Part shown: piece by piece, positions 9,596 to 62,000 of the stretch | How positions within the stretch are numbered: the stretch's first letter is position 1 | Layout: each line of letters starts with the position of its first letter | Source: Chiloscyllium plagiosum | Taxonomy: Eukaryota | NCBI RefSeq assembly: GCF_004010195.1 | Contig: NC_057756.1 | Location: forward strand, 7,608,473-7,670,472 | Length of the DNA: 62,000 nt | Reading direction: 5' to 3' | The notes under the pieces: model-generated | Told to the model about the DNA's origin: nothing | What the model saw: only the letters and a program-made list of their open reading frames with translations | Databases searched by the model: none | Made by a program: the position numbers and the translations under genes

Positions 9596-10482
9596 ACTGA
9601 AAGCAATTGTTGGGTTCTTGGAATATAGAATTGACAGCTGGTAGTTCACACAGAGAGAGCAACCCACGTACAAGACCAAGTTCAAATATATACTTTCTCA
9701 CATGAAAGAATTCTTTGTTTTGTCTCACTTTGAAGGCATTCTTTGTTAAGTTGTTCAATCACTTGACAGCTCCATTTTATTATATTTATGTTTATCAATG
9801 GTTTCATTTATCTTACAGTACATTTCAGTTTCACAATAGTTATCCTCTGTCCTTCACGTGGCCAACCCCAACTACAGGTCCACTTGTTCATAGGGTGTGG
9901 ATATGATCTCTTGCCATGAGTGCTGCTATTCTCATATTCCTGTGGAACATTGCTAAGAATGTGTCTGTCCTGTAAGGCAGGATTATTTAACATAATGGTG
10001 TCAAATTCATGATTCTGTGCATCACATTTGTAATGTGGATGTCATTATATGCCAGCTTGCATTGTGATTATGTTGAACATTTACAACATTTAAGGCCATT
10101 ACTCGTTGGCTAGGAGAACAGATTGGTTAATTTTTGGGAGAACAGAAGGATAATTTGCTACCCTGCTCATGTTTTTTGTCCCTGTCATTAACAGTTGATG
10201 GAAGTTAATCCAATAGAACATGTTCAATCTGAGTTTGTATGCAACAATTAAAATATGCAACTGACAAATTTACATCTACATAGAGATTTTGCAGTACTTC
10301 ATGTTCAACACCATGCAGCCACACCCTTTGTACATTGGACAAAGGCTAACATGGGATGGAATCAAGATTAACATCTTTTTATATTTTGATATTCTTCCTG
10401 AGCACTCTAAAGCCATCTTGACTCAAATAGAAGGCTGTTCAAACTAAAATTTTTAAATTAACTTCCATTCTCCCTCTTACAG

Positions 10483-28509: not shown

Positions 28510-29282
28510 CAATCTATAAGACAGTACCATATATGACTTTGTTTTCCCAGAATGCTGCATTGAGTAGAAAACGCCCAGCAAATGATTTGTATCAAAGCTG
28601 TTAGTTTGTTTGAAAATACGAACAGCGGTGTAGCCTTACATTCGATTGGATGTTAAGTTATTTCGGATTGCCAAGATAGACAAGATTTTTTAATCCTCTC
28701 CTGAAGTAAACGTAATGAATAATTCACCCAAGAAAGCCACGCCATTGCAGCGATAACAGACATAAAGGAAAATCCACAAGAAATCGACAGGAAGAACTCA
28801 ACTAGGGAGACGGCATTCCATCCAAAAGGGTGGCACCGAAACTAGCAGCGCGGCCACTAGTTACTGCTGGCAGTGAATTGCAAACGAGTCCACTCACATT
28901 TTGTCTGCCTCATTTCAGTTTTGTTTGGCAAAAACATTTCCTGTCCTCTCATTTCATTTACCTCGGAAATGGTCTGTTATGATCCCAACTGATGTTAAAA
29001 TTGGACACCTCAGACTGGAAACAGAAATCAGGATTGCTGGTTCATCTTTATTTCATTTCTCATTTCACGTGGTAGTCTTTCAGTTAAAGAAAAGTCTGTA
29101 ACTCTGCATATTTGGTTTTAACATTAAAAAAAGTATATGTGCTCTTCACATAAAATAGTTTGAACGCTTTCAAAGTACATGACAAAAATATCCTGGCATC
29201 TGTCTTTACCGTACTCGAATGAGAGTTTCACTCTGTGCAACATCTACAGCTGTGACTCAAGTGCTTCTTTCACTTCCTGTTA

Positions 29283-32919: not shown

Positions 32920-33515
32920 TGTGCATAACATGTACAGTCCTCAGCAGAGGGGCATGATGCATGTGTGTGTGTGCGTGCGTCTGTACGTGTCTGAATGCGT
33001 GTGTGAGTGCGAGAGAGAGAGAGAAAATGCGTGTGCATGTTTGTGTGTCTGTATGTGTGCAACATGTACAGTCCCCAACAGAGGGGCCTAATGCTGTGTG
33101 TGTGTGTGTGTATGTGTATGTGTGTGTATACATTCCCCAGCAGAGGGGCAGCATATCGTGTGTGTCTGTGTGTAACATGTACAGACCCCAGCAGAGGGCA
33201 TGATGCTGTGTATGTCTGTGTGTAACATGTACAATCCCCGGCAGAGAGGCACGTTGATGTCTGCGTCTGTGTGTTACATGTACAGTCCCCGGCAGAGGGC
33301 ATGATGTGTGTGTCTGTGTGTTACATGTACAATCCCCAGAAGAGGAGCATGATGCTGTGTGTGTCTGTGTATAACATGTACAGTCCCCAGCAGAGGGGCC
33401 TGATGCTGCGTGTGTCCCTGTGTAACATATGCCGCCCCCAGCAGAGGGGCGTGATTCTGACTGTGTCTGTGTGTTACATGTACAGTCCCCAGCAGAGGGG
33501 CATGATGCTGTGACT
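32920..33515. repeat. ~45-bp minisatellite (tgtgtaacatgtacagtccccagcagaggggcatgatgc) interleaved with TG runs
   Basis: About 10 imperfect units; only one unit at the paralogous site, ~14960-15000. Confidence 0.88.
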
Positions 33516-33611
33516 GTGTGTGAGTTGGTGATGATTTAGTCCATCAGTGATGACTCAAAGTCATAGCCAATTAGAAATTGGAGCTCTAACTAACAAATAG
33601 AACTTCTTAAA

Positions 33612-39271: not shown

Positions 39272-39635
39272 GTGGAAGGGTCAGTATTAAGGGAGTGTCA
39301 CACTGTCAGAGGGTCGGTGCAGAGGGAGTGCCACACTGTCGGAGGGTCAGTGCTGAGGGAGCGCTGCACTGTCAGAGGGTCGGTGCTGAGGGAGTGCCAT
39401 ACTGTCGGAGGGTCGGTGCTGAGGGAGTGCCACACTGACGGAGGGTCAGTGCTGAGGGAGCGCCGCACTGTCGGAGGGTCAGTGCTGAGGGAGTGCCACA
39501 CTGCCAGAAGGTCAGTAGTGAGGGAGTGCCACACTGTCAGAGGGTCAGGAGTGAGGGAGTGCAGCACTGTTGGAGGGTCAGGAGTGAGGGAGTGCTGGAC
39601 TGTCTGAGGGTCAGCGCCGAGGGAGTGCCGCACTG
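39272..39635. repeat. 33-bp minisatellite (actgtcggagggtcagtgctgagggagtgccac), about 11 copies, in the last aldolase intron
   Basis: Visible 33-bp period, which gives the 11-aa period in the ORF track. Confidence 0.9.
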
Positions 39636-40060: not shown

Positions 40061-40154
40061 CTGAGAGAGAGGGAGGTGGGAGAGGGAGGGAGGGAGAGGG
40101 AGAGAGAGAGATGGAGAGAGAGAGAGAGGAGAGAGGAGAGGGAGGGAGAGAGAG

Positions 40155-43100
40155 GGAGGGAGAGAGAGACGGAGGGAGAGAGAGACGGAGGGAGAGAGAG
40201 ACGGAGGGAGAGAGAGACGGAGGGAGAGAGAGACGGAGGGAGAGAGAGACGGAGGGAGAGAGAGACGGAGGGAGAGAGAGACGGAGGGAGAGAGAGACGG
40301 AGGGAGAGAGAGACGGAGGGAGAGAGAGACGGAGGGAGAGAGAGACGGAGGGAGAGAGAGACGGAGGGAGAGAGAGACGGAGGGAGAGAGAGACGGAGGG
40401 AGAGAGAGACGGAGGGAGAGAGAGACGGAGGGAGAGAGAGACGGAGGGAGAGAGAGACGGAGGGAGAGAGAGACGGAGGGAGAGAGAGACGGAGGGAGAG
40501 AGAGACGGAGGGAGAGAGAGACGGAGGGAGAGAGAGACGGAGGGAGAGAGAGACGGAGGGAGAGAGAGACGGAGGGAGAGAGAGACGGAGGGAGAGAGAG
40601 ACGGAGGGAGAGAGAGACGGAGGGAGAGAGAGACGGAGGGAGAGAGAGACGGAGGGAGAGAGAGACGGAGGGAGAGAGAGACGGAGGGAGAGAGAGACGG
40701 AGGGAGAGAGAGACGGAGGGAGAGAGAGACGGAGGGAGAGAGAGACGGAGGGAGAGAGAGACGGAGGGAGAGAGAGACGGAGGGAGAGAGAGACGGAGGG
40801 AGAGAGAGACGGAGGGAGAGAGAGACGGAGGGAGAGAGAGACGGAGGGAGAGAGAGACGGAGGGAGAGAGAGACGGAGGGAGAGAGAGACGGAGGGAGAG
40901 AGAGACGGAGGGAGAGAGAGACGGAGGGAGAGAGAGACGGAGGGAGAGAGAGACGGAGGGAGAGAGAGACGGAGGGAGAGAGAGACGGAGGGAGAGAGAG
41001 ACGGAGGGAGAGAGAGACGGAGGGAGAGAGAGACGGAGGGAGAGAGAGACGGAGGGAGAGAGAGACGGAGGGAGAGAGAGACGGAGGGAGAGAGAGACGG
41101 AGGGAGAGAGAGACGGAGGGAGAGAGAGACGGAGGGAGAGAGAGACGGAGGGAGAGAGAGACGGAGGGAGAGAGAGACGGAGGGAGAGAGAGACGGAGGG
41201 AGAGAGAGACGGAGGGAGAGAGAGACGGAGGGAGAGAGAGACGGAGGGAGAGAGAGACGGAGGGAGAGAGAGACGGAGGGAGAGAGAGACGGAGGGAGAG
41301 AGAGACGGAGGGAGAGAGAGACGGAGGGAGAGAGAGACGGAGGGAGAGAGAGACGGAGGGAGAGAGAGACGGAGGGAGAGAGAGACGGAGGGAGAGAGAG
41401 ACGGAGGGAGAGAGAGACGGAGGGAGAGAGAGACGGAGGGAGAGAGAGACGGAGGGAGAGAGAGACGGAGGGAGAGAGAGACGGAGGGAGAGAGAGACGG
41501 AGGGAGAGAGAGACGGAGGGAGAGAGAGACGGAGGGAGAGAGAGACGGAGGGAGAGAGAGACGGAGGGAGAGAGAGACGGAGGGAGAGAGAGACGGAGGG
41601 AGAGAGAGACGGAGGGAGAGAGAGACGGAGGGAGAGAGAGACGGAGGGAGAGAGAGACGGAGGGAGAGAGAGACGGAGGGAGAGAGAGACGGAGGGAGAG
41701 AGAGACGGAGGGAGAGAGAGACGGAGGGAGAGAGAGACGGAGGGAGAGAGAGACGGAGGGAGAGAGAGACGGAGGGAGAGAGAGACGGAGGGAGAGAGAG
41801 ACGGAGGGAGAGAGAGACGGAGGGAGAGAGAGACGGAGGGAGAGAGAGACGGAGGGAGAGAGAGACGGAGGGAGAGAGAGACGGAGGGAGAGAGAGACGG
41901 AGGGAGAGAGAGACGGAGGGAGAGAGAGACGGAGGGAGAGAGAGACGGAGGGAGAGAGAGACGGAGGGAGAGAGAGACGGAGGGAGAGAGAGACGGAGGG
42001 AGAGAGAGACGGAGGGAGAGAGAGACGGAGGGAGAGAGAGACGGAGGGAGAGAGAGACGGAGGGAGAGAGAGACGGAGGGAGAGAGAGACGGAGGGAGAG
42101 AGAGACGGAGGGAGAGAGAGACGGAGGGAGAGAGAGACGGAGGGAGAGAGAGACGGAGGGAGAGAGAGACGGAGGGAGAGAGAGACGGAGGGAGAGAGAG
42201 ACGGAGGGAGAGAGAGACGGAGGGAGAGAGAGACGGAGGGAGAGAGAGACGGAGGGAGAGAGAGACGGAGGGAGAGAGAGACGGAGGGAGAGAGAGACGG
42301 AGGGAGAGAGAGACGGAGGGAGAGAGAGACGGAGGGAGAGAGAGACGGAGGGAGAGAGAGACGGAGGGAGAGAGAGACGGAGGGAGAGAGAGACGGAGGG
42401 AGAGAGAGACGGAGGGAGAGAGAGACGGAGGGAGAGAGAGACGGAGGGAGAGAGAGACGGAGGGAGAGAGAGACGGAGGGAGAGAGAGACGGAGGGAGAG
42501 AGAGACGGAGGGAGAGAGAGACGGAGGGAGAGAGAGACGGAGGGAGAGAGAGACGGAGGGAGAGAGAGACGGAGGGAGAGAGAGACGGAGGGAGAGAGAG
42601 ACGGAGGGAGAGAGAGACGGAGGGAGAGAGAGACGGAGGGAGAGAGAGACGGAGGGAGAGAGAGACGGAGGGAGAGAGAGACGGAGGGAGAGAGAGACGG
42701 AGGGAGAGAGAGACGGAGGGAGAGAGAGACGGAGGGAGAGAGAGACGGAGGGAGAGAGAGACGGAGGGAGAGAGAGACGGAGGGAGAGAGAGACGGAGGG
42801 AGAGAGAGACGGAGGGAGAGAGAGACGGAGGGAGAGAGAGACGGAGGGAGAGAGAGACGGAGGGAGAGAGAGACGGAGGGAGAGAGAGACGGAGGGAGAG
42901 AGAGACGGAGGGAGAGAGAGACGGAGGGAGAGAGAGACGGAGGGAGAGAGAGACGGAGGGAGAGAGAGACGGAGGGAGAGAGAGACGGAGGGAGAGAGAG
43001 ACGGAGGGAGAGAGAGACGGAGGGAGAGAGAGACGGAGGGAGAGAGAGACGGAGGGAGAGAGAGACGGAGGGAGAGAGAGACGGAGGGAGAGAGAGACGG

Positions 43101-44303
43101 AGGGAGAGAGAGACGGAGGGAGAGAGAGACGGAGGGAGAGAGAGACGGAGGGAGAGAGAGACGGAGGGAGAGAGAGACGGAGGGAGAGAGAGACGGAGGG
43201 AGAGAGAGACGGAGGGAGAGAGAGACGGAGGGAGAGAGAGACGGAGGGAGAGAGAGACGGAGGGAGAGAGAGACGGAGGGAGAGAGAGACGGAGGGAGAG
43301 AGAGACGGAGGGAGAGAGAGACGGAGGGAGAGAGAGACGGAGGGAGAGAGAGACGGAGGGAGAGAGAGACGGAGGGAGAGAGAGACGGAGGGAGAGAGAG
43401 ACGGAGGGAGAGAGAGACGGAGGGAGAGAGAGACGGAGGGAGAGAGAGACGGAGGGAGAGAGAGACGGAGGGAGAGAGAGACGGAGGGAGAGAGAGACGG
43501 AGGGAGAGAGAGACGGAGGGAGAGAGAGACGGAGGGAGAGAGAGACGGAGGGAGAGAGAGACGGAGGGAGAGAGAGACGGAGGGAGAGAGAGACGGAGGG
43601 AGAGAGAGACGGAGGGAGAGAGAGACGGAGGGAGAGAGAGACGGAGGGAGAGAGAGACGGAGGGAGAGAGAGACGGAGGGAGAGAGAGACGGAGGGAGAG
43701 AGAGACGGAGGGAGAGAGAGACGGAGGGAGAGAGAGACGGAGGGAGAGAGAGACGGAGGGAGAGAGAGACGGAGGGAGAGAGAGACGGAGGGAGAGAGAG
43801 ACGGAGGGAGAGAGAGACGGAGGGAGAGAGAGACGGAGGGAGAGAGAGACGGAGGGAGAGAGAGACGGAGGGAGAGAGAGACGGAGGGAGAGAGAGACGG
43901 AGGGAGAGAGAGACGGAGGGAGAGAGAGACGGAGGGAGAGAGAGACGGAGGGAGAGAGAGACGGAGGGAGAGAGAGACGGAGGGAGAGAGAGACGGAGGG
44001 AGAGAGAGACGGAGGGAGAGAGAGACGGAGGGAGAGAGAGACGGAGGGAGAGAGAGACGGAGGGAGAGAGAGACGGAGGGAGAGAGAGACGGAGGGAGAG
44101 AGAGACGGAGGGAGAGAGAGACGGAGGGAGAGAGAGACGGAGGGAGAGAGAGACGGAGGGAGAGAGAGACGGAGGGAGAGAGAGACGGAGGGAGAGAGAG
44201 ACGGAGGGAGAGAGAGACGGAGGGAGAGAGAGACGGAGGGAGAGAGAGACGGAGGGAGAGAGAGACGGAGGGAGAGAGAGACGGAGGGAGAGAGAGACGG
44301 AGG
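40155..44303. repeat. Apparently perfect 16-bp tandem array (AGAGAGAGACGGAGGG)n, about 259 units
   Basis: Exact 16-bp periodicity over ~4.15 kb with no variant seen by eye; a degenerate GA-rich lead-in at 40063-40154. Confidence 0.97.
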
Positions 44304-46462: not shown

Positions 46463-47769
46463 ATTAACACGATGTCAGAAAATTGCCTAAACATAAATTT
46501 GTTTGTCCACTTTTGACAAAAATGTAACATGGCTTAATCAGCATTAATCCAGAGACCAGGTTTGGAAATTGAAGGGGAAGATTACCGACTACCAAACTGA
46601 GAAAGGCAAAACAATGAGATCTCGTCAAGCACAGCCTTCAGAGAGGAGATCGGCTGGCACCTGGGAAGATAGGGAGTGGTGAGAACAGGGGCACAGGCAC
46701 TTTGTTTTTGGAATGAGCACAATACAGCGTTTTTGTCTCTGCCAACCCATCTTGGAATTTAAGTAATTGTGTACAGTTTACATGATATGCAATTTCTAAA
46801 TGTCTGACACATCCTTATGCAGATAACAGTGTTACCTCAGAATTTTTTCTCAGGTGGATTGTCCAAATTCGGCTCGATAAATGGTTGCCAGCCTGGACTT
46901 TAAGGCTCTTGAGACTATTTTGTAAAATCATTCACCCCAACAGTTCTGCGTCCACTTAGGACAGTGAGCTGGAAGCTACAGTGATACATGTATCCCCTGT
47001 CTAATATGGGTCTTAATTGAGCGAAAATTATCGTACATTTGCCTCAACAGATTAATGTGGCGATGATATTATGGCTTCAAGAGCTGTATTACCCTTGTGT
47101 TTTTTTTTATGAATAAAGGTTGTAGAAGTACTAAACAGTCTGATCAAGGCCAATAAAGGAAAGACTTTGTGGTGCCTTGGGGTGTTTTTTTTAGTTGGAA
47201 CAATACAAAGAGTCCTGGCTCAGGGTTTGTAGTTTTCATTTTCAGTAGCAGTTGCTGGGATCTTATTCTCTCTCTGTTACAGTGAAAAGCTGGGATTCTC
47301 TTCCCACAGTTGGAATTGCATGTGAGAAAATCCATTTTGCTGAATTTGCCTTTGGCAAGCATATGTTTATGGAATATTATGATATTGAAATAGTTAATTA
47401 GTAGTAGTTAACATATACATCATTTTGTTAGGCATTTCTACAGGGTTTCAATTAATCTAATTCTTTTTCTCTTTTTATATTGTTTATATTTTAACTATAG
47501 TGTAAAAATAACGTGTGGTTTACTTAATGTCGAGTAGTTTGACCGATCGAATTTCATCTGGAATGCAAAGCCTTATATTTACCTGTAAAATAAGAAATGT
47601 TAGGGCTAGATTATTCTCTTAATATATTTTCAGGTGGCTTAATCTGGTCCATAACAATGTTGAAATTGCTCTACATTTGCTCCAGCCACTTGTGTAGACA
47701 ATTTTCTAAATTTATTTGTGCAGGATTAAAAGAATAATAAATGGAATTCTCTATTTTGCATTATTTTAG

Positions 47770-48057
47770 ATAAACCCAGACTTGTATCAGGTCTGAACTG
47801 CACAAGAGAGAAAAGAAGGTTGTTTTGTATCTGCAGAGTCAGAGCCAATCCCCCAGCAAGCATCAGATGGAATGTCAGTGGCAGAAACATCACAAGGAAC
47901 ACTTCAGATTTTACAGTTCATTCCTGGACGATGAGCAATGGGTTACGTCAGAGCTCGTTGACATTGATTCACCCAACAGGATCGGAAACACTGATATCAT
48001 GCATCAGAGGGAACAAGCTGGGCATTAGTGTCAGCAGCTATGAACTCAACTAAACAG
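47770..48057 (+). CDS. Ig C2-type domain exon, MAG/Siglec-like, copy A (in-frame TAA just before the donor)
   Basis: TAG acceptor, phase 1. Reads KPRLVSGLNCTREKRRLFCICRVRANPPASIRWNVSG...SSLTLIHPTGSETLISCIRGNKLGISVSSYELN*T, then G|GT. It is 288 bp like copy D. Confidence 0.7.
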
Positions 48058-48569
48058 GTGCTCTCAAAATGTTTTACATTTTAATTACTACAAACATTTA
48101 ATCACATCACTAACGCAACATCTGTGGAGAGAAAGCAGACTGAAGTTTCTTGTTCAGTGACCTTTCTTCATTTGTCCAGCCGTTGATTTTGCACATTTCA
48201 GATAAAATTACAAAAAGAGCTTGAGTACCAATTTTATGAGGGTCACCAACAATTAAACTGTATGACAGAAAGTGTTATTTGGCTGCCAGATGGAGGTGAT
48301 TAGTCGTGATGTTGTCTTATAAAATGTACCAGTTTGTGTTGGCTGATAGTTAATTGACAGGATTTGTTGAAAATATAAAATGTATTCTGATTGGTCAAAG
48401 CACTTAACTGAAAAAAACAAACCATTTTTTCATCTTTTTGATTGAGTACTGTGTGCAGGTGTTGACATAAAAATCAGCATTTTGACTTCTGCAAATCAAA
48501 ATGGTTTCTCTATGCATTCGCCATTTTAAACTGAAAGCTATAATGTAAGATGCAGAATCTCAAGACGTC

Positions 48570-49740
48570 AGGTCATAGAGGGTTCTACAGCACAGAAACA
48601 AGCCCTTTGGCCCAAACCGGTCCATGCCAACCAAGATTTCCATCGTCATTTGCCGCATTTCCCTGCACTTGGGTCGTATCCTTCAAAACCGTTAGTATCT
48701 ATGTATTCGTCTAAATGCATTTTAAATGGTGTTTATGTATCCACCTGAACCAATTCCGCTTGCTGCTTGTTCCATATGCATGCCACTCTCTGTGTAAAAA
48801 AGTTACCATTTGATTCTTTCCCCGATAACCTTAAACTGATGCCCTCAGTCTGGAAAAACAACTGAGTGCAGTCACCCTATTCATGTCTGTCATTATCATA
48901 CACACTTCTGTAAGCTCCCTCCCCTGTCCCCTACGGTCGAAAGGAAAAAAAGTCCTAGCTTGTTCAACCTCTCCTGATAACTCAGACCCTTGAGTTCTGG
49001 CAACATGCTTGGAAATTGTCAGTTTAATAAAATCCTGCCTGTCAAAAGGTAACCAAAACTGAACACAATAGTCGAAGTGTGGCCTCACCAATGCCTTGTA
49101 TGACTGCAATGTCACTTCTCAATTTCTATACTCAAAGTCCTGACTGATGAAGGCCAGTGTACCAAAATCCTTCTTCACCGCCCTCTCTACCTGTGATTCC
49201 ACTTTTAGGGAACCATGCACCTGACCTCCAAAGTCCCTCTGTTCCACTACACCCCTTAAGGCCCTACCATTCACCATGAAACTTCTGCCTTTGTTTGACT
49301 TTACAAATTGCAAGGCCTCATACTCATGTGTATGAAGCTCCATTTGTCATTTCTTGGCCCACTTCCCCATCTAATGAAGGTCCTGCTGCAATTTCTGATA
49401 AACTTCCTCACTGTCCACAACACCATCTATTTTAGTGCCATCTGCAAGCTTACTAATCATTTCTTGTACATTCTCATCCAAATCATTGACATAAATATCA
49501 AAGAGCAATAAGCCCACTATGTTTTTTTTACACAGAAGGTGGTATGCATTGGAATGAGGCAGGTACATTAACAACATTTAAAAGGCGTTTGGACAAAGAC
49601 ATGGATAGCAAATGTTTAGAAGGATAAGGGCCAAGTGTAGAGAAATGGGATTAGTGTGGTTGGATATTTTGTTTGGTAAGGGCTATTTTAGGTGAAAGGG
49701 CCTGTCTCCATTGTGTAAGACTCTATGACTCTGTGACTGC
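48570..49740. mobile_element. CR1 RT-to-3' fragment (minus, to ~49500) followed by a plus-strand CR1 3' end
   Basis: DIYVNDLDE...SKLADGTK; YKALVRPHFDYCVQFW. Confidence 0.8.
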
Positions 49741-50519
49741 AAGTGAGTAAGTGAGTTATGAGAAGTAAGGGAAAGAAGTGTTCTTTTGGTTTTGATTTAA
49801 CCTAAAATTTTCCAGCCACAGGAATTCATTCCTAGTCTGCGAAGAAGTTGCAGCTGCTTATTTGCTGAGTGACTTTTACATGACTCGGTTTCTTCCATCG
49901 GTTTCTTCCATCAACGTAGTGCTGGAACTTGCAATAAGTTTGATACAGCATATAAGAACAGAACTAAATATATAAAACAATTGCTGGGTAGTTAAGACCA
50001 CAATAAGGACAGCAGGATGGGTACTGGATCATAGCTGCAGAACTTGGGAGTTCCTGAATGTCAGGCTTGTCCAGAGCAAATCTGTCTGGAATGCACATTT
50101 GAATTTCAAATGCTTTCTGCTCACATTTTATGAATGGAAGGCACTGTGGCGCATCAAGACAGCGGAAACATTATTTGTATTGATATAATTTGATTTGATT
50201 TATTGTAGTCGCATACACCTAAATGCAGTGAAATGTTCTATTTTGCGACCAGTGCAGGCAGATCACAGCAAACAAGGGTATCCAGATCACAAGATGCTTA
50301 CACAGAGCGAGGTGTGCAAGATTATACCTGCACAGTAGGCATGCAAAGCAATATCAACATTATTTGAAGATATCGAAGTCCATTCAGCAGTCTAATTGCA
50401 GCAGGGAAGAAAGTGTTCTTGAACCTGTTGGTGCATGTCTTCAAGCTTCATCTGTATTTTCAGTAAGAGGAGGAATGCACAAGTCACAGGCCTCGGGATA
50501 TCTGATTTGTTCATTGGTC

Positions 50520-51235
50520 GTAGAGTCATAGTTATGTACAGCACAGAAACAGAACCTTAGGTCCAACCCGTCCATGTTTACCAGATATCCTAAATTAATT
50601 GAGTCATATTTGCCATCACTTGGCTCATATCCCTTTAAGCTCTTCCTTTTCACATACTCAGCCTTTTAAATTTATAATTATACCAGGAAGCACCACTTCC
50701 TCCGGCAGCTCAGTCTGCATACCCATCATCCTCTGTATGAAAGTTACTATTTAAGTTCCTTTTAAAGTTTTTCCCCTCTCACCCTAAACCTATGCCCTCT
50801 AGTTTTGAACTTTCCCACTTCAGGGAAAATATCTTCTCTATTTACCCTATCAATGCCTCTCATGATTTTATATGCCTGCTTAAGGTCACTCCTCAACCTC
50901 TGACACTCCAGGGAAACACTGCCAGCCAATCAATATCACCCTGAAGCTCAAAGCCTCCAACTCTGGCAATATTCTTGTAAATCTCTCCTGAACCCTTTCA
51001 AGTTTCACAACATCCTTATGTCAAGAGGGAGACCAGAATTGCACACAATATTCTAAAAGTGGCTCAACCAATGCCCTGTACAGCCACAACATGACCTCCC
51101 CACTCCTATACTCAATGCCCTATCAATAAAGGAGTGCATACCATACACCTTCGTTATCCTATCTAATTGCGACTCCACTTTCAAGGCACTATGAAACTGC
51201 ACTCCACGGTCTCTTTGTCCAGCAATACTCATTAA
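50520..51235 (-). mobile_element. CR1 3' fragment
   Basis: QRDRGVQFHSALKVESQLDR and a typical 3' end. Confidence 0.8.
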
Positions 51236-51957
51236 CCAGAGGGTATGACTACAAGCGAGGCAGGGAAGAGTAGACAAAGGACAGGAGCACAGGATTCTCA
51301 CCATTTGGAATTGACCTCACAGATGAGGTTATTTCAATTTGACTCAATAAGAGTGGGGGCTGCTGGATCGTTGATATAAATAACAAAAGCATTGTAATAA
51401 AGAGCATTATTCAAGGAAGGTACGTGTCAGGGTGGGTGGCAGATGCTAGGTAAATGGGAATATAGTGGTTTTGGGGATAGTATAGAATTTTGAGGGCGGT
51501 TGACATCAGCAAGTTAATCTGAAGCCTTTAGGATGGAGTTTGATGATTATTTAAGTGGAATCAACACTCAAGTTTATGGGGAAAGGCAGGAGTATTGCAC
51601 CAAGTCACATTGTTATTTGGAGATCTGTTGCAGAAATAATGCGCCAAATAGCCTTCTCCTTCTCCATGACACTTCAATAGATCGTGGCTCCAAAACATCC
51701 TTCGCCAACAGTATTAAACATGAGTCAAGTAGGCAGCTTTCTACGATGGTTTGGGATGTTATCTTACAATTCAACAGAAAGTATCTTTGGATGGGGAAGT
51801 ATCTACTCCTGATTGCCCATTTTGTTACCAGAAAGAGGTGCAGAACAAAGAAAAATGTTCTGAAAGTTATTGTGAGGAACTAGATAGCAGATGAAATGGC
51901 AGAACCTCAAAGCTCATGATCTCTACGTTATTGCATCAGCTAACGTTATTGCATTGT

Positions 51958-52215
51958 GGGCGGCACGGTGGCACAGTGGTTAGCACTGCTGCCTCACAGC
52001 GTCAGAGACCCGGGTTCAATACCCGCCTCAGGCGACTGACTGTGTGGAGTTTGCACGTTCTCCCCGTGTCTGCGTGGGTTTCCTCTGGGTGCTCCGGTTT
52101 CCTCCCACCATCCAAAGATGTGCAGGGTCAGGTGAATTGGCCATACTAAATTGCCCGTAGTGTTAGGTAAGGGGTAAAAATCTAATCTAATCTAATCTAA
52201 TCTAATCTAATCTAA
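51958..52215 (+). mobile_element. HE1-like SINE with internal deletion and (atcta)n tail
   Basis: Near-consensus head and core; tail of about 7 units. Confidence 0.9.
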
Positions 52216-53179
52216 ATGCAAATTTGCACAGGTCAAAGAAGACTAGAGCGATGTCAGGTGTGAGTGAAGCGTGTTCCAGTTCTAAGCGTGCTACCATTAG
52301 AAATACTGCAAGTATAATCTCTACCAATGGGGCAGAGTCCGTGTGACCATACTGGGCGAATATTCTTGTTGCCTGATTGTTTGTAAGGTTTAGAGGATTC
52401 AAAACAGAATTGGGGAGAGAAGATATTAAATTTAGAATGATGCGTTATATCAAAAAGTGAGTTAAGGCGAAACACAAAGTTCAACCAACAGATAAGATTA
52501 GAATTTACAAAGACAAAAAAAGGGATGAAGCTGAAGGCTCTGTGTCTGATTGGAGATATTGCCTAAAACAAAGCAGATGATCTGACAGCGTGAGTATAAT
52601 GATTCAATATGAACTGGTAGCTTTCACAGAGCCATTGCTCCAAGATGATGTTAATTGGGACATAAATCTGGAAAAGTTGAGGACATTTAGGCATGACTGG
52701 AATCTAGGACATGGGCGGGTTTGTTAATCAATGATGACATTATCAGAAGAGAGCAAGATGACCTAAGTTCAGAAAGTCAAGATGTGGAAACAGGTTTTAG
52801 TATGTATGAGATGTGGTAAAACACACAAAAAAAATGGTAATCGTGTACAGTCCCCTTAACTGTGGGAATGTGGCAGGCTAGAGCATCGTTCTGAGAACAT
52901 CATCACAGCTTTTGAGATGATGTTTCGGAACAGCATATTCCAGAACCAACGGGAGATCAGATTACAATAGGCCTGATAGCATACAATATTTAACTTTGGA
53001 TTGACAACAGTGCACCATTGGTGGTGAACACCACTGTGATTGTCTCTTGATGGTTAAATTGTTGTCAGTGATAATTTCATAAACTTCTCCAGTTAGTTAA
53101 ATAGAATATACTCCACATACTAGACTATGCATGTGGATGACTGCAACCATGATAATGTGAATCAGCTCCTTTTCTTCAG

Positions 53180-53465
53180 ATGAACCCAAAATAATATTGA
53201 TCCAAACTCCAAAACTACCAAGGACGAGGTTTCTTGTATATACATTGTTAGAGCAAAACCTCTAATAGCCTCCACATAGAGTACAAGTGGGGGAAAAATC
53301 ACGGAAACACTTTATATATTAGAATCTATTCCTGAACAGAGAAAAATGATCTGTTTCGGAGCTCATGAACACTGAATGGATTAAATTGCTCTGAAGAGCT
53401 GATTATGTGCAAGGCAGAGAATGGGAATGGCATTAGTGTCAATAAATACCAACTCAATTCAGCAA
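53180..53465 (+). pseudogene. Ig-domain pseudo-exon, MAG/Siglec-like, copy B
   Basis: CAG acceptor and homology to copies A/C/D (EPKII...VRAKP...EELIMCKAENGNGISVNKYQLNSA), but with frameshifts, stops and lost Cys/Trp. Confidence 0.75.
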
Positions 53466-54194
53466 GTACATCCTAATTTTACATTTAATTCAACTGCAGA
53501 AGGTGGGTGTTTTGACTGTCCCTACTTGAACTTGGGAAGACGATGGAGAGCTGCCTTCTTGAACAAGTGCAGTCCATGTGTTATAATGCCATTCGGTAGA
53601 GATTTCTACATCTTTTACTCAGCAAAACTGAAGTAATGGTGATATATTGTCAAATCAGGATCGTGAGGTGCTTGTCGGGAGACTGGCAGGCAATGGTGCT
53701 CCCATGAATCTGCTCTGTTGTCCTTCTATATGGTAGTGTTTATTGGTGTGGAGGATGTTGTCGAAGGCAGCTTCGAGGATTGACCCAACCATTCTGGAAG
53801 CTAACAGCTTTGCACTTTCATTTCAGTGGAGTAAGAATTCAAGTGAATTAGGGAACAATTTAAATCTGAGATTAACAGAATTCAGTTCTGTTTTAAAGTT
53901 AGAATACCAATTATGTCATGATGGAAACATTTAAATGCTAAACAGTCATGGCCTATCTGTTTACCAGTCGAGATTCTGATGGATCAGTGGCACTTCCTTC
54001 CATAGTCTGACTTCAGCTGACATCAGAAAATTATTTACACTTAGTGTTGTATGTCGGATTAGCTGGGCGTGTAATCTCGCGCCTCAGTAGCTTTTGAAGC
54101 TGGTCTGAAATTCAACTGATCAATGTGGATCTGAAATGATCCAGGAAATTTTACTCGAACAAACTCGATAAGTAAATTATTATCGATGAATGGG

Positions 54195-54520
54195 ATGGCA
54201 TGGTTATTCAGTGATTGGCACTGCTGCCTCTCAGTGCCAGAGACCTGGGTTTGACCTGGAAAGTTGCAAATTCCCCATGTGCCTGCGTGAGTTCACTTTG
54301 CATGTTCGAGTCGCTTGCTGGAGATGTGCATGTTAGGTGGATTTGCCATACTAAGATGCACTATCGTGTTCAGGGATGTGCAGGCTATGTATGTTAGCTA
54401 TGGGAAAAGCAAGGTATGGGAGAGGGTCATGGGGTGGGAGTGGGTGCAATAAGGTTTAGAGGTATAGTGCAGACGTGATGTACCGAATGACCTCTTCCTG
54501 CACTGTAGGGATTCTATAAC
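54195..54520 (+). mobile_element. Degenerate HE1/V-SINE-like element
   Basis: ggcactgctgcctctcagtgccagagacctgggtt head and cactgtagggattctat tail. Confidence 0.55.
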
Positions 54521-54569
54521 ATTATCTCCTGCACTTAATCAATTAAAAAAATCTCTTCAATGTGAGTCT

Positions 54570-57500
54570 GCGGGATTTTTAAGGGGGAGGGAGAGCAGCC
54601 AGAAGTCGGGTACACTTTGGTACGAGTGCATATCTCGCAAAAGTGAATATATGGAATTCGGATTGGAAGCTACAGGATGAGCAGACCAATATCCTAGGCT
54701 TGCAACCAGTACCACAGGCTAGTGAGGTGAGGAACAGACATCAAGTGCAGCTGAACACGTGGCTGCAGAGCTGGTGTAGGAGGGCAGGCTTCAGATATGT
54801 GAATCAGGAGGATACCTTCTGGGGTAACATTGGACCTGTACAAGGAGGACATGTTGCACCTGAACTGAAGAGGGACCGATATCTTGGTCACGAGGTTGCC
54901 AGAGGTTTTCAGGATATTTCAACTAGTTTGACAGGGGTATGGGAACCGAAGCTATGGATCAGAGGTTGGGGTAGCTGGTGAATAAGCAGATGGAAAGGAC
55001 AGAAAGTTTGTGAAGAAGAATATACAGTTGTTAGGGCAAAGTTGCAGTCAGTGTGTTGTTTTGAAGTGTGCCTATTTTAATGCAAGAAGTGTCAGAAACA
55101 AGAGGATGAACTGAGAGCATGGATCAGTACTTGGAGCTACGATGTTGTGGCCATTACGGAGGCTTGGATATCACAACGCTTGTTGGATGTTCTGTGGTTT
55201 ACATATTTCCAAAGGAATAGGGAGGGAGGTAAAATAGGTGGGGAATGGTTTTGCTAATCAGGGATAGTATCACAGCTGCAGAAAGAGAAGTCATCAAGGA
55301 GGATTTGTCATATGAGTCAGAAGTAGGTGTAAGTAAGAAACAGGAAAGGAACAGTCACTTTACTGGGAATTTTCTGTATACCTCCCGAATAGCAACAGAG
55401 TCATGGTGGAGCAGATTGGGAAGCAGATTATGGAAAGATGTGGAACTAAAGGGTTGTTCTCATAAGTGACTTCAACTTGCCGAATATTCATTGAAACTCC
55501 CTTCCTGCAAATCGATAGGATGGAACAGACTTTTTCAGTTGTGCCCAGAAGGGCATTGACTCAATGTGTAGGTAGGCTATGTTGGATTTGATGCTTTGCA
55601 ATGAACCAGGCTAGGTTTCAGATGTCTCGATGGGAGAGCATTTTGGTGACAGTGATCACAACTCCTGATGTTTACTGTAGTTACGGAGAGGGATGCGAAT
55701 AGATGGTATGAGTGCATTTAATTGGAAGAGGGAAATTTATAATGCTATTAGGCAGAACTATGCAGCATTGATTGGGAACAAATGTTGTCAGGGAAGTGCA
55801 TGACAGATATTGGAGGTGGATTAGGGAGCACTTGCTGCGAGTGGTACAAAGGTTTATCCCACTGAGGCAAGGAAGGGATGGTAGGGTGAAGGAACCTTGG
55901 AACACCAGGTTATAGTCCAACAGGTTTAATTGGAAGCACATTAGCTTTCGAAGAGATGCTCCTTCATCAGGTGATAGTGGAGAGCTCAATCTTAACACAC
56001 AAAATTTATAGCAAAAATTTACAGTGTGATGTAACTGAAATTAAACATTGAAAAATTGATTGTCGGTTAAGTCTTTCATCTGTTTGAATGCCATGATTGT
56101 TTCACTTCCTACATGTGTAAATCACAAAACCTTTTTTTAAAAAGTTGCACTCTGGTTAGCTGTTAACAATGGTGATAGCTAGACAATATGTTGAAGGTGT
56201 TAGTCCCCTGTGTGCTCTGTCTATGCCATGATGTTTAGATTGATTCTAATCTAAAAAGTGAGATAACGGAGTTTTACATTAATTCATGCAGTTTTTCAGC
56301 TCAGAGTTCTACATGAATGCATGCAGCTTTTGAGCAAAGTACAATGTAACCCTGCAAGTACAAATTCACCCCACAAAATATATGTGTCCATTGGGGTCTT
56401 TGTCTGTGTCTGTGTGTGTCTGTCTGGGTTGGGGGTCGTGAGTGTGAGAAAGTGTATGTGTGTGTGTGTAGTGAGTGTAGAATATCTTAAGTCTGTGAGC
56501 GGGTGCATGTGTGAGTGTGGGAGTATGTGTGTCTGTGCGGGTGTGTGTGGGTGTCTGTGTGCACATCTGTGTGTATGTGTGTCCGTGTTTATGCGTGTAT
56601 AGGAATGTATGTGTGTATGTGTGTGTGAGTGAGAGAGAGAGAGAGACAGACAGAGAGAGAGTGTGTGTAGGAGTGTGCAATGGTAGTCACCTGTAATCTG
56701 ACATGAATACTTTGCTTCAGTATTCACTACTGAGAGGGACCTTGTCATTTGTGAAGACAGCATGAAACAGGCTGACACCCTCGAACAAGTTGAGGAAGAA
56801 GGAGGATGTGCTGGAAATTTTGAAAAACTGGAGAGTAGGTAAATCCTCTGGGCCAGACAGGATGTACCTAAGATAACTATGGGAAGTGAGGAAAGAGATT
56901 GCTGTGCCTTTGGTGATGATCTTTGAGTCCTCACTGCCCACTGGAATCGTACCAGATGATTGGAGAATGGCAAATGTTCTTGCCTTGTTCACAAATGTGA
57001 GTTGGGATAACCCTGGGAATTACAAGACAGTCAGTGGTGAGCAAGATATTGGAGAGGATTCTGACAGACAGAATTTATGATTATTTTGGAAAACATAGTT
57101 TGATTATATTTAGTCAGCATGACTTTGTTTGGGGCAGGTCATGCCTCGCAAGCCTTACTGAATTGTTTGAGGAAGTGTCAAATCACATTGAAGAAAGTAG
57201 AACAATGGATGTGCTGTATATGAGTTTTAGCAAGGCGTTTGACAATGTTCCCCATGGCAGGCTCATTCAGACCGTAAGGAGGCATGGGATACAGGGAAAT
57301 TTGTCTGTCTGTATATAGAATTGGCTGGCTTATAGAAGGCAGAGTCTGGTTGTCGATGGAGCTGAGTGACCAGTCATGCTCCACGGGGATCTCTTCTGGG
57401 ACCTCGGTTCCTTGTGATTTTTATTAAAGACTTGGATGAGAAAGTGGTAGGGTGAGTTGGTAAGTCTGCCAATGGCACATGTTTTGGTGGAGCTGTGGAT

Positions 57501-57950
57501 AATGTGAGGACTGTTGTAGGTTGCAGTGGGATATTGACAGGACGCAGAGCTGGGCTGAGAGGTTGCAGACAGAGCTCAGTCAGGAAAAGTGTGAAGTGGT
57601 TCATTTTGGAAGGTCGAATTTGAATTACAGGGTTTAAAGCAAGGACCTTGGCAGTACGGAGTAACAGGTGGTCTTGTTGTCCACGTCCATAGATCCTTCA
57701 AAGTTGCCCCCCAAGTTGATAGGGTTGTGAAGAAGACATGTGATGTTTTGGCTTTCATTAGCAGAGGGATTGAGTTTAAGAGCTGCGAGGTTATGCTGCA
57801 GCTCCACAAAACTGTGATTATATCACACTTGGAAGTTTGTGTTCAGTTCGGGTTGCCTCGTTATAGGAAGGATATGGAAGCTTTAGAGAGGCTGCAGAGG
57901 AGATTTATTAGGATTCTGCTTGAACTGGAGGGCTTGTCCTATGAAGAAAT
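54570..57950 (+). mobile_element. Long degenerate CR1 (ORF1 esterase, endonuclease, RT) interrupted at 55900-56705
   Basis: LNTWLQSWCRRAGFRY; YFNARSV; PDDWRMANV; SQHDFVWGRSCL; FSKAFDNVPHGRL. Confidence 0.85.
55900..56705 (-). mobile_element. Penelope-type 3' region with (CA)-rich tract and hammerhead-like core (~55937-55973)
   Basis: Minus strand reads cacCTGATGAaggagcatctcttcGAAAgcta...aattaaacctgttggactataacctggtgtt; same terminus family as 38380-38465. Confidence 0.6.
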
Positions 57951-58284
57951 GTCTCACAAAGAAACATGCGAACCTGTCAGAAAAGTAAAATAATAACCAT
58001 GGAGAATTTCACGTATGTATAGATAATGATAGATGGATGAAGATATACAAAATCAAGTGTTCATAAAATTTTTTGAGAATGTCCCATAAACACATGTCTG
58101 TTAACAGCATGTGCTGGAGCCAACGGGAGAACAGCTTATAATAGACCCTGATATCATACAATACTTAACTGTGGCTTAACAGCATCACATTATTGGTGAG
58201 AACAGCAGTGTTATTATCTGTTGATATTTATTTAAGTTGTTGCCATTAACTTCTCCGGTTCTTTAAATAGAAAGCAATATTTTG

Positions 58285-58610
58285 GCATGGCAGCTCAGTG
58301 GTTAGCACTGCTGCCTCACAGCTCCAGGGACCTGGATTTGATTCCAGCCTCGGCGACTGTCCTGTGTGGAGTTTGCACATTCTCCCTGTGTCTGCGTGGC
58401 TTCCCTCTGGGTGCTGTGGTTTCCCCCCACAGTCCAAAGATGTGCAGGTTAGGTGAATTGGCCATTCTAAATGGCCCGTAGTGTAGGTTATTTGGCTGGG
58501 TAAATATAGGGTAGGAGAATGGGTCTGCGTGGGATACCCTGTAGCCAGTCGGTGTCCACTTGTTGGGCCAAAGGGCTTGTTTCCACACTGTAGGACTTCT
58601 AATTCTAATT
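58285..58610 (+). mobile_element. HE1-like SINE
   Basis: Head, core and tail present; absent at the paralogous site ~53110. Confidence 0.85.
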
Positions 58611-58675
58611 CACATCTAGACATTTCATGTGGATGTTTGCATTCATGATAATGTGAATCTGCTCCTTTCCTTTTG

Positions 58676-58957
58676 ATGAACCCGTCATTGTATTTGATCC
58701 AAACTGCACCCGTTCCAAGAATGAGGCATTTTGTTTCTGCATGGTCAGATCCAATCCTCCAGCAATCAATACATGGAAAACAAATGGGAAAACGGGGATC
58801 ACTTCAGATGTTTGAGTCTATTCCTGAACAGTGAATAATGGCAGGTTTCAGAGCTTTCTGACACTGACTCGTCTAAATTGGTCTGAAGAGCTGATTAAAT
58901 GCAGAGCAGAGAATGTGAATGGTATTGGTGTCATTAAGTACAAGCTGTGTTCGTCAG
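58676..58957 (+). pseudogene. Ig-domain pseudo-exon, MAG/Siglec-like, copy C
   Basis: Reads EPVIVFDPNCTRSKNEAFCFCMVRSNPPAINTW...EELIKCRAENVNG. TGA stops at 58813 and 58825; acceptor mutated to TG and donor to AT. Confidence 0.8.
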
Positions 58958-58984
58958 ATAAATCCTTAGTTGTATTTTAATTCG

Positions 58985-59580
58985 TGGGATTTGGGCGTTG
59001 TTGGCTGAGACAACATTTTTGTTTTCCCATCACTGATTGCACTTGAGAAGGTGGTGGTGAGATGCCTCCTTGAACCACTGCAGTCCATGTTCTGTAAGTA
59101 CAACCTGAAATCCATTCGGGAGGGAATTCTAGGTCTTTGACTCAGACCGAATGGTGAAATATCCCCAAGTCAGAATAGTGCAGAGCTTGCAGGCTGTAGT
59201 ATTCCAATGAATTTCTCTGTTTCATTTTAAGTGGAAGCGTTCATGGGCTTGAAAGGTGCCAAGGAGCCTTGGTGGATTTCTGCAGTGCACCTTGTAAAAG
59301 ACACACATTGTTACCATGGGACATTGGTGGTGGAAGGAGTGGATGTTTGTGGATGTGATGCCAATCAAGCAGGTTGTTCTGTCCGGGATGGTGTCAAGCC
59401 TGTTGATTGTTGTGGGAACCGTACTCACCCAGGCAAGTAGGGAATATTTCATCACTGCTGACTTGGGCCTTGCAAACAATGAACAGGCTTTCGAGTAGGA
59501 GATGAGTTACTTCCGGCAGTATTCCCAGCTTTTTGACTGCCCTTGTAGCCTCTGCATTTATATGGAAAGTCCAGTTGAAT
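58985..59580 (-). mobile_element. CR1/L2-group LINE 3' fragment (shorter paralog 53500-53780)
   Basis: VMKYSLLAWVSTVPTT on the minus strand; same family as 35510-36170. Confidence 0.6.
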
Positions 59581-60571
59581 TTCAGAGAAATTTCAGAGAA
59601 AGTCAGTTAGGAATCCTTTCCTGAAGCATCCAGCACACCTGGTACTTACACATCTTATGACTGCTTCCGATAAAAAAAACTAGAAGAAAAAAGCCTGAAC
59701 AGGGAGAACTCGCCATTCCCCTTTCATAATTAAACTGACACACCCTAGACTCCTCGCCACTCTTTCTTTAAAATCTCTCTTCAAAAAATAACCTTTTGAA
59801 AGTGATAGCATCGTCACAGACTTTACACCACTACTGAGACAACTGTGACTGTCATTGAAAATGCCCTATCTACTGGATATTATTTTGTAAATGCGGACTT
59901 TAATTATGAAATGAGTGTGTAACAAAATATTTTTTCCTAGAACATGAAAGAAAATGCACACTGCTGCATGTTCAATACAAGTACAACATTATATTTATTC
60001 TACACATTCAGCATCATGTTTGCATTCCACGTTGTTCCAGCCACTCAGTGCATGATGGCTGTGCACACTATTTAAGTATCTGCTGTCCATTTTACTCAAA
60101 CAACCTGGCCAGTAACAGCTTCGGTCTTTAATTTCAGTGAAAGCTCAACTGGAAAAATGAACATCTCAACATTGAAATTGACAGAATCCAATTTATTTTT
60201 AAAGTAAGAATATCAATGATGTCACCGTGGAGCAATATTAAAGTGCGAAACAGGGTTGATCTCTTTGAATGCCAGTAGAGATATTGAGGGATTTCTGTAA
60301 CTGCTAACATGGCTGGCATTAGAAAATGATATAAACATAGCACTTAGCGTCGCGTTAGCTGGGAACATATTCTCAAGCTCCAGTGGCTTCTCAAATTTGA
60401 CTGATCAAAATGGATTCGAAATCATTTAGGACATTTCACTTTGTTAACCTCAATAAATAATATTTTGTCATTATTTATTCTAGTTATTCAAAAAATTAAC
60501 TATTTCACGTACATGTTACAACTGCATGGTAAAAAGGATCATCATTTGAACACTGTTATTTCCTTTTGCAG

Positions 60572-60859
60572 GGATACCGACAATAGTTTCTGGTCCGACC
60601 TGTGCTAGTTCCAAGAAAGGCCTCGTTTGTACCTGCAGAATCAGAGCTAATCCCCCAGTAAACATCACGTGGACCCTCAGTGGGAGAGAGATCAAAGGAA
60701 ACATTTCAGATATTACAGTCCATTCTGGGAGGGTGAATAATGGCCTGTTTCAGAGCTTCTTGACACTGATTCATTTCCCTGGATTTGAAAAGCTAATCTC
60801 ATGCACAGCAGAGAACGATAAAGATGTTATTGTTAGCAGGTACCAGCTCCATTCAACAG
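60572..60859 (+). CDS. Ig C2-type domain exon, MAG/Siglec-like, copy D (intact)
   Basis: CAG acceptor, 288 bp, phase 1-1, open. Reads IPTIVSGPTCASSKKGLVCTCRIRANPPVNITWTLSG...FQSFLTLIHFPGFEKLISCTAENDKDVIVSRYQLHST, then G|GT. The C-x8-CxC-x3-(A/S)NP pattern resembles the membrane-proximal Ig5 of MAG. Confidence 0.8.
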
Positions 60860-61414
60860 GTACATCTCTGAATATTCTGAAGTGTAGTGACTACACTGAT
60901 AAATTCTTTGAGAGATAATATTTCTTATGTCTGGGGGAGGTGTGCCTGTGTCCAGCCCCACTGACCACTTTCACGGTGAATGTTAAATGTAGAAACGCAG
61001 AAAATAGGAGCAGGAGTAAGCCATTCGGTCTTTCTAGCCTGCTACCCATTCAACATAATCATGATTGATCATCCAAATCAATACCTTTTTCCCACTTTCT
61101 GCACATACTTTTCATCCCTTTATCTCTTTCATGAAAACATTCATTGCTTTGGCTTCAGAAATTTACTGTAGTTGTAATGTTAAGGCATGTATAATGCCTT
61201 GTTCACTGTCTTCACAGAGGGTCTGATTGTTTTAACTTTTCTTGGTTGTGTTCAAGATTAATTCATAAGAAGCGGTAGAAGACCATTTTCGCTATTAAAA
61301 TGACAGGATCCATTGAATTAATACAGGGCTTTGCGATGTCAAATTTTCTCTCAATGTCATAGACCGTGTTCCTGAGTATTGTTTGGCAGAGCATAAAAAG
61401 TAGTCATGATGTAA

Positions 61415-61530
61415 AGATGCTGTGTTGAACTGGGCTGGACAAAATCAAAAGTCACAGGTCACAGGTTGTAGTCCAACAGATTTAGTTAAAACCACAAAGT
61501 TTTAGAGAAGTACTCCTTTATCAGGTAAAT
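61415..61530 (-). mobile_element. Degenerate Penelope-type terminal fragment
   Basis: caggttgtagtccaacagatttag...ctcctttatcaggt. Confidence 0.45.
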
Positions 61531-62000
61531 AAAAATTAATAGGAGTGGTAGGCCCTTTAGCCAGTCCAGCATACGTTATTGTTTAATAAGGCTCTAAACT
61601 GAACACCATTTTTCTATCTGTAGAGGCCATAGCCCGAATTTCCATTTTCAATCACAAATTCACCTAACCCTCGAAATTACCCATTGTCCAGCTTCCACTT
61701 CTCAGTGGAGAAGAGTGATCCAAAGATTATCTCTTTTCGAAGAGATAGAAAAAGAATACTCATTATTTCCGTCTTAAATGGGAGACCCTAATTTTCAAAA
61801 TTTTCCACTTTCCGACTTAGTTTAAGGCTTCCTTTCTAATTGCGGTGTTTATTTGCTGGTTCACTCACTGCAATGTCCAGGTCTGAAAATCATTTCATTC
61901 TGTTTTGGTTTTCTTGACACCATTCAGAAAAAAAGATAGGAGGAGAATATTTGACCCCTTGACGATACTACAACATTCAATAAGTTCGCATCTTAACTTT

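What the first reader, a model, noticed from the sequence alone, without database searches (positions are those of the whole stretch)
47770..60859. Tandem array of a single MAG/Siglec-like Ig exon: one stop-terminated, two dead, one intact
Seen: four same-strand homologous phase-1 exons of 282-288 bp, with no V-set, TM or cytoplasmic exon recognisable between them. Known: the C-x8-CxC...NP pattern with an extra Cys pair resembles Ig5 of MAG/Siglec-4, which occurs once there, next to the membrane. Inference: this is exon-level birth-and-death inside one Ig-superfamily receptor gene. It could tune stalk length or supply alternative exons, and may mark a lineage-specific Siglec-like immune receptor.
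Basis: partly seen in the sequence, partly recalled or inferred. Interest (0 to 1): 0.7.

Follow-up and report, generated by a model that had tools for sequence, protein, structure and literature searches.

The report
Decaying stalk exons, shark Siglec-like gene
A shark immune-receptor-like gene carries four old copies of one antibody-like stalk exon, two long dead, one cut short by a late stop and one intact; such exon gain and loss is common in its relatives, so this is mostly ordinary gene-family turnover.

Summary
The four exons are real: E1 47770-48057, E2 53180-53465, E3 58676-58957, E4 60572-60859, all + strand, phase 1. They encode the MAG-Ig5-like, four-cysteine domain that sits next to the membrane in a shark Siglec-like multigene family. 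The best relative is Chiloscyllium plagiosum XP_043539253.1 (V-C2-A-B-TM-ITIM); E4 is 72% identical to its last domain. No V, C2, TM or tail exon lies between the copies or elsewhere in the window. The copies are old and of three lineages (E1; E2/E3 type A; E4 type B). E2/E3 is an exon-level duplication, probably of an already dead exon (dN/dS 0.83, shared stop). E1 and E4 stayed constrained (dN/dS 0.30). Tandem copies are not special here: 9 of 22 predicted chondrichthyan relatives have two or three, and a croaker protein has eight. Most likely the gene last worked as V-C2-E1-E4-TM and the E1 stop is a recent knockout. The open question is whether that stop, which falls just after the last strand of the domain, instead ends a secreted form (about 20%). 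No read evidence was obtained. Low to moderate interest.

The parts
47770..48057 (+). E1: MAG-Ig5-like Ig exon, 288 nt, AG/GT intact, four Cys and both Trp kept, TAA at 48051-48053 two codons before the exon end; weak-looking donor CAG|GTGCTC
   Evidence: folds as a complete 7-strand Ig domain ending at residue 92, pLDDT 85; 65% identical to the first such domain of Stegostoma XP_059497279.1
48252..48257 (+). ATTAAA 198 nt after the E1 stop; possible intronic poly(A) signal, but chance-level
   Evidence: 21 such hexamers in 15.5 kb, one per 740 nt
52900..54184 (+). Duplicated unit around E2 (upstream intron, exon, shared old repeat at 53508-53781, downstream intron)
   Evidence: homologous to 58061-60469; alignment scores 83-252 against shuffle maxima 27-82
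53180..53465 (+). E2: dead type-A copy, 286 nt, two 1-nt deletions, stops at 53277, 53333, 53366
54196..57952 (+). Mobile-element block between the E2 and E3 units: SINE-like copy 54196-54516, then one decayed LINE 54583-57952 with a nested insert (CR1-type by recalled motifs)
   Evidence: Pfam RVT_1 at 57001-57315 E 3.5e-7, weak GDSL hit at 54583-54978 E 0.037
58061..60469 (+). Duplicated unit around E3, with later repeat insertions; ends about 100 nt before the E4 acceptor
58676..58957 (+). E3: dead type-A copy, 282 nt, both splice dinucleotides lost, 6-nt deletion, stops at 58813 and 58825 (the latter shared with E2)
60572..60859 (+). E4: intact type-B copy, 288 nt, the type that precedes the TM exon in XP_043539253.1
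45963..46462 (.). 500-N assembly gap 1.3 kb upstream of E1; leader, V and C2 exons may lie in it or be unlinked
   Evidence: no V/C2 exon on either side

Best explanation
The four exons are the stalk region of one gene of a shark Siglec-like receptor family (V-set, C2, one to three MAG-Ig5-like domains, TM, tyrosine-motif tail). Because the exon is symmetric phase 1, tandem copies keep the frame and arise easily (inferred). Old duplications gave three lineages: E1, type A and type B (shown by tree). The type-A exon died and was copied again with its flanking introns, giving E2 and E3 (duplication shown; death before copying inferred). E1 and E4 stayed under selection, so the last working product was V-C2-E1-E4-TM-tail, a two-copy receptor like XP_043539253.1 (inferred; V, C2, TM and tail are not in the window). 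The single TCA>TAA-type stop in E1 is most likely a recent knockout: with E1 spliced in, the message has a premature stop ahead of several further junctions and should be degraded (recalled NMD rule), so this is a null allele or young pseudogene unless E1 is skipped. The exon-level architecture alone I put at about 0.8; the whole statement lower.
For: Closest protein and domain order A then B then TM. Tree: E2/E3 with type A 100/99, E4 with type B 98/95. E2 and E3 units share upstream intron, a repeat behind the exon and downstream intron; about 190 nt between them is not accounted for by repeats. dN/dS E2-E3 0.83 (0.47-1.50), E1-E4 0.30 (0.14-0.52), 86 codons. An exon like E4 stays intact in only 0.5% of neutral simulations at 0.2 changes per site, 7% at 0.1. 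No V or C2 exon between E1 and E4, so an E4 under selection must share its upstream exons with E1. Copy number differs between near-identical Stegostoma neighbours (3 versus 2). Null alleles and pseudogenes are common among Siglecs (PMC6288428 passages; PMC13358205 section).
Against: Among simulated exons with exactly one lesion, only 1-1.6% had it as a stop at codon 93 or later, so the stop's place is unlikely for a random first hit. The shared E2/E3 stop would arise independently about 22% of the time. The unit boundaries coincide with mobile-element ends, which also fits a deletion that removed more DNA. E1 is not placed by the tree. No V, TM or tail exon, no expression and no splice junction has been seen.
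Confidence: 0.52

Rival explanations
1. E1 has become a terminal exon: V-C2-E1 is secreted as a soluble decoy or lectin, using intronic polyadenylation, while skipping E1 (C2 to E4) gives the membrane receptor.
For: The stop falls directly after the last beta-strand (strand 84-92 in the model); such a place is 1-1.6% of single lesions by chance. Both E1 and E4 look constrained. E1's donor matches the recalled U1 consensus at 5 of 9 places against 7 of 9 for E4, while its acceptor is good. An ATTAAA lies 198 nt downstream. C2-to-E4 splicing would stay in frame (inference from phases).
Against: The window was picked after the fact. The hexamer is at chance density. A recent stop looks the same under either reading. 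No database protein ending like E1 was found (a weak negative). E1 departs from the family at the conserved C-x-A-x-N motif.
Confidence: 0.2
2. The copies come from two or more whole tandem genes whose other exons were deleted, not from exon-level duplication.
For: The family forms tandem gene clusters (three consecutive Stegostoma accessions). Homology of the E2 unit stops at a repeat and that of the E3 unit starts near the end of a LINE, as a repeat-linked deletion would leave it.
Against: It needs deletions that remove every V, C2, TM and tail exon without trace and leave the family's own order (first domain, A, A, B). E4's intactness needs upstream exons until recently.
Confidence: 0.13
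3. The E1 stop is a consensus error or a private variant, and the gene is an ordinary working two-copy receptor (V-C2-E1-E4-TM) with two dead exons in an intron.
For: It is one base; E1 is otherwise intact and constrained. E1 lies 1.3 kb from a contig end.
Against: No other single-base damage is seen in E1 or E4; nothing tests it directly.
Confidence: 0.1
4. One reading: the array is a maintained pool of alternative exons that tunes stalk length.
For: Relatives differ in copy number (1-3 in sharks, 8 in a croaker protein), and ectodomain length matters for Siglec-1 (PMC13358205).
Against: Two of four copies are unusable and evolved about neutrally; a third carries a stop. Only one copy can now extend a membrane stalk.
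Confidence: 0.05

Closest known systems
Chiloscyllium plagiosum 'myelin-associated glycoprotein-like' XP_043539253.1 (predicted model) and Stegostoma tigrinum XP_059497279.1/280.1/281.1
   Same: Tandem MAG-Ig5-like domains; type A followed by type B in XP_043539253.1 and XP_059497281.1; E4 72% to the last domain of XP_043539253.1, E3 63% to its first, E1 65% to the first of XP_059497279.1.
   Different: Four copies instead of two or three; two are dead and one is stop-terminated; the rest of the gene is not in the window.
MAG / Siglec-4 Ig5 (PDB 5LF5; PMC5150538)
   Same: Membrane-proximal Ig domain with an extra intra-domain disulfide (C421-C430 in MAG, passage); the cysteines align; E4 matches 5LF5 residues 396-473 at E 0.0062.
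   Different: MAG has five Ig domains, one Ig5, and dimerises through Ig4-Ig5. The shark relatives are a multigene family with other domain counts and no WxxW motif, so they are not MAG orthologues.
CD33-related Siglecs (works like, not membership)
   Same: Clustered, fast-changing V-C2 receptors with ITIM-like tails, null alleles and pseudogenes (ITIM-like motif in 14 of 15 shark tails examined).
   Different: The shark family has the MAG-Ig5-like domain, and only 6 of 19 V domains keep the sialic-acid-binding arginine. Orthology was not tested.
Larimichthys crocea XP_027142023.1 (automatic name hemicentin-1)
   Same: V/C2-type N-terminus followed by 8 tandem C-x8-C-x-C-x4-NP domains at a 105-residue period.
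   Different: A teleost protein, 24% identical to E4 over matched stretches; copies are intact and recent.

Membership tests
Shark Siglec-like multigene family (annotated MAG-like / Siglec-like) | Four-cysteine membrane-proximal domain closest to this family | tested here: met
   The 8 proteins at E <= 1e-30 among 1.84 billion are all named shark proteins of this family; profile scores 126-130 bits for E1 and E4.
Shark Siglec-like multigene family (annotated MAG-like / Siglec-like) | V-set and C2 exons upstream, TM and tail exons downstream | not testable with these tools
   Absent from the window; a gap lies upstream and the window ends 1.1 kb after E4; no whole genome held.
Siglec | N-terminal V-set domain with the essential arginine | not testable with these tools
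   No V exon in the window. The closest relative has the Arg aligned to MAG's; 6 of 19 family V domains do. Feature taken from PMC13358205.
Siglec | Type I membrane protein with signalling tail | not testable with these tools
   No TM or tail exon in the window; 14 of 15 relatives' tails examined have an ITIM-like motif.
Siglec | Binds sialic acid | not testable with these tools
   Needs a binding assay.
Siglec | Closest solved structures by sequence are Siglecs | tested here: met
   For the closest relative P0001, 17 of 18 PDB sequences at E <= 1e-6 are Siglecs, MAG first. For E4 alone the result is weak: MAG at E 0.0062, rank 16 of 118.
MAG / Siglec-4 orthologues | Ig5-type extra cysteine pair | tested here: met
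   C10, C19, C21, C77 invariant in 12 of 12 rows including E1 and E4; MAG C421-C430.
MAG / Siglec-4 orthologues | Five Ig domains with one Ig5; WxxW motif in the V domain | tested here: not met
   Four Ig5-like exons here; the closest relatives lack WxxW. The window gene's own V domain could not be examined.
MAG / Siglec-4 orthologues | Fold closest to MAG Ig5 | tested here: inconclusive
   The E1 model matches generic Ig domains (MHC II C1-type; Dscam, titin at Z 10-11.4, rmsd 2.2-2.9); rows are tied.
Dscam-type mutually exclusive exon array | Several intact alternative copies under selection | tested here: not met
   One of four copies is fully intact; E2/E3 are neutral.

The most novel reading that the evidence does not exclude
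A shark Siglec-like gene has turned one of its duplicated stalk exons into a stop-bearing terminal exon, so that one locus switches between a secreted V-C2-Ig decoy (E1 used) and an ITIM-bearing membrane receptor (E1 skipped, E4 used). More widely, sharks have an undescribed, fast-turning Siglec-like receptor family in which this exon was duplicated independently at least four times and most V domains have lost the sialic-acid arginine.
Probability: 0.2. Interest if true: 0.55.

Novelty: new member of a known kind. Interest (0 to 1): 0.3.

Why it matters
As it most likely stands it is a clean example of exon turnover in an immune-receptor-like family, and a warning for annotation: dead and stop-bearing copies will mislead gene models. 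The wider family is the more useful lead. It is present in many shark genomes under automatic names, and no paper on it appeared in six literature searches (open-access library only). If E1 ends a secreted form, it would show a simple route from exon duplication to a soluble decoy paired with an inhibitory receptor in a cartilaginous fish.

Tried and rejected
Fifth copy or other exons: none; apparent pre-gap matches over E1 and E4 were 22-25-bit tblastx noise. A leader-like hit at 28506-28550 (11.5 bits) is the 3' flank of a 7TM gene and recurs behind the other 7TM copy. Intron homology of E1 with the other copies: nothing clearly above shuffles (best 119 against a shuffle maximum of 109.5). 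An acceptor-like site near 48200 shows no exon homology. Fold searches gave generic Ig matches and did not list MAG among the rows shown. The protein atlas gave only generic Ig clusters. A search for longer proteins like E1 found none among 28 candidates, a weak negative. No read alignment was obtained, so splicing, expression and the state of the E1 stop in other individuals are open. No whole genome was held. Earlier scan findings: none by sequence or by words. PMC7226832 (fish Siglecs) has no occurrence of 'shark' or 'cartilaginous'.
Full report
Observation. tblastn with E4 finds three further copies and nothing else below E 2.8; a DNA profile finds only the four. E1 is 47770-48057 (288 nt, AG/GT, one TAA at 48051, codon 94 of 95). 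E2 is 53180-53465 (286 nt, two 1-nt deletions, three stops, donor CAA|GTACAT). E3 is 58676-58957 (282 nt, acceptor TG, donor AT, 6-nt deletion, two stops). E4 is 60572-60859 (288 nt, intact). Pairwise DNA identity in the coding part is 60-72%. Seven run records from two studies hold at least half the sampled words of 60200-61200, so the E4 region is real DNA of that species; one may be the assembly's own source.

What the domain is. Pfam gives only weak Ig hits. The one longer protein found for E4 is P0001, C. plagiosum XP_043539253.1, 'MAG-like': V-set, C2, two tandem four-cysteine domains, TM, and a tail with VLYSAV and SEYAAI. Its best solved relative is MAG (E 4.7e-29); 17 of 18 PDB sequences at E <= 1e-6 are Siglecs; the four-cysteine domain aligns with MAG Ig5. 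MAG Ig5 has an extra disulfide C421-C430 and forms the dimer contact with Ig4 (PMC5150538, passages). An AlphaFold model of E1 up to the stop is a complete seven-strand Ig domain (pLDDT 85, last strand 84-92); fold searches give only generic Ig matches. The closest sequences are from carpet sharks (Chiloscyllium, Stegostoma), so the window is probably from one (inference).

The family. A search with P0001 returned 71 proteins; the top 22 are chondrichthyan. Of these 22, 9 carry two or three copies of the domain, in six species; P0003's second copy is partial and P0011 looks like two fused genes. Within-protein pairs of 99%, 98% and 96% identity in Heterodontus, Scyliorhinus canicula and S. torazame show separate recent duplications, besides the older carpet-shark A/B pair. 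Two near-identical Stegostoma neighbours have three and two copies. A croaker protein, XP_027142023.1, has eight. All are predicted models whose RNA support I could not see. So repetition of this exon is recurrent, not special to this locus. Only 6 of 19 family V domains keep the arginine that Siglecs need (PMC13358205, section 4.3.4 read), and the MAG WxxW motif is absent, so 'Siglec-like, not MAG' is the right label.

History of the four copies. In a tree of 24 domains (a subset of the 42, plus the partial P0003 domain), E2 and E3 group with type A (100/99), E4 with type B (98/95), and E1 is unplaced, although by identity it is nearest the first domain after C2 in Stegostoma (65%). The order E3 then E4 repeats the A then B order of P0001 and P0003. 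E2 and E3 lie in homologous units (52900-54184 and 58061-60469) that share upstream intron, a repeat just behind the exon, and downstream intron. Between them lie a SINE-like copy and one decayed LINE with a reverse-transcriptase hit (the SINE and CR1 labels rest on recalled motifs), leaving about 190 nt unexplained. This is what an exon-level duplication leaves. A gene duplication followed by a deletion cannot be excluded, since the unit ends meet element ends. E2 versus E3 has dN/dS 0.83 (0.47-1.50) and both have TGA at Trp52; independent origin of a shared stop has about 22% chance, so 'copied when already dead' is likely but not shown. E1 versus E4 has dN/dS 0.30 (0.14-0.52). In neutral simulations with my own assumed rates, E4 survives intact 0.5% of the time at 0.2 changes per site, so E1 and E4 were kept working long after E2/E3 died.

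One gene or several. Profiles for leader, V, C2, extra Ig, TM and tail built from the relatives find nothing above the null in 46463-62000 or 1-39950; the one leader-like hit was rejected. Intact held-out V, C2, extra-Ig and TM exons score 42-186 bits, and most half-length, 30%-mutated V and C2 exons still exceed the null; decayed TM and leader exons often do not. Since E4 was under selection and has no V or C2 exon between itself and E1, the two must have shared upstream exons. Those lie in the 500-N gap or are not linked in this assembly; TM and tail would lie beyond 62 kb.

How it most likely works. The last working product was V-C2-E1-E4-TM-tail (inferred). The E1 stop now ends translation after a complete domain. 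If E1 is spliced on to E4 and further exons, the message should be degraded (recalled rule), making this a null allele or young pseudogene, as is common among Siglecs (PMC6288428, passages). I give this 0.52. Against it, a single random lesion is a stop this late only 1-1.6% of the time, E1's donor is the weakest of the four against the recalled consensus (5 of 9), and an ATTAAA follows 198 nt later, though at chance density. These fit a secreted form ending in E1, with the membrane form made by skipping to E4; I give that 0.2. Collapsed tandem genes 0.13, base error or private variant 0.1, a maintained pool of stalk-length exons 0.05. No read alignment was obtained, so none of these was tested on transcripts or other individuals.

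Literature. Six searches of the open-access library (listings and abstract starts only) showed no paper on shark Siglec-like clusters or on duplication of this exon. The whale shark genome paper mentions Siglecs once, in a list (PMC8455134, passage); a paper on fish Siglecs never mentions sharks (PMC7226832, term search). Subscription papers are not covered and no supplements were read; they could describe the family. No earlier scan finding matched.

Verdict. It is a new member of a known kind: a Siglec-like gene with a variable number of stalk exons and dead copies. Interest 0.3; the secreted-form reading is the part worth one RNA check.

Noticed in passing
window 10431-11393 (+) and 27541-28503 (+): Two intronless rhodopsin-family 7TM genes, 86-94% identical in protein; the first has an open frame of at least 321 codons with no ATG seen at its start, the second is frameshifted. 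They look GPR139/GPR142-like (recalled label, not tested). About 800 nt of 3' flank is duplicated too.
   Followed up: partly
window 40063-44303: Tandem repeat of a 16-nt unit, 265 copies, 99% matches, giving open frames of over 1400 codons on both strands; 1.7 kb before the assembly gap.
   Followed up: no
window 3403-3560, 33044-33521, 39277-39635: Smaller tandem arrays with periods 16, 51 and 33.
   Followed up: no
P0001-P0021 and related shark proteins: Only 6 of 19 V domains of this shark Siglec-like family keep the sialic-acid-binding arginine, while 14 of 15 tails examined have an ITIM-like motif: many members may be inhibitory receptors with another ligand.
   Followed up: partly
P0073 (XP_027142023.1, Larimichthys crocea): Eight tandem MAG-Ig5-like domains in a protein auto-named hemicentin-1; probably a misnamed Siglec-like receptor.
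   Followed up: partly
P0003 (XP_059497281.1), P0011, P0020: Gene models that look broken or fused around this exon: P0003 has a half type-B domain, P0011 joins two genes through repeat-like sequence, P0020 has a likely intron read-through between copies.
   Followed up: no
window 52250-52800 (+): A very decayed LINE endonuclease-like fragment just upstream of the E2 unit, recognised by recalled motifs only; tblastx to the neighbouring LINE gave no significant hit.
   Followed up: partly
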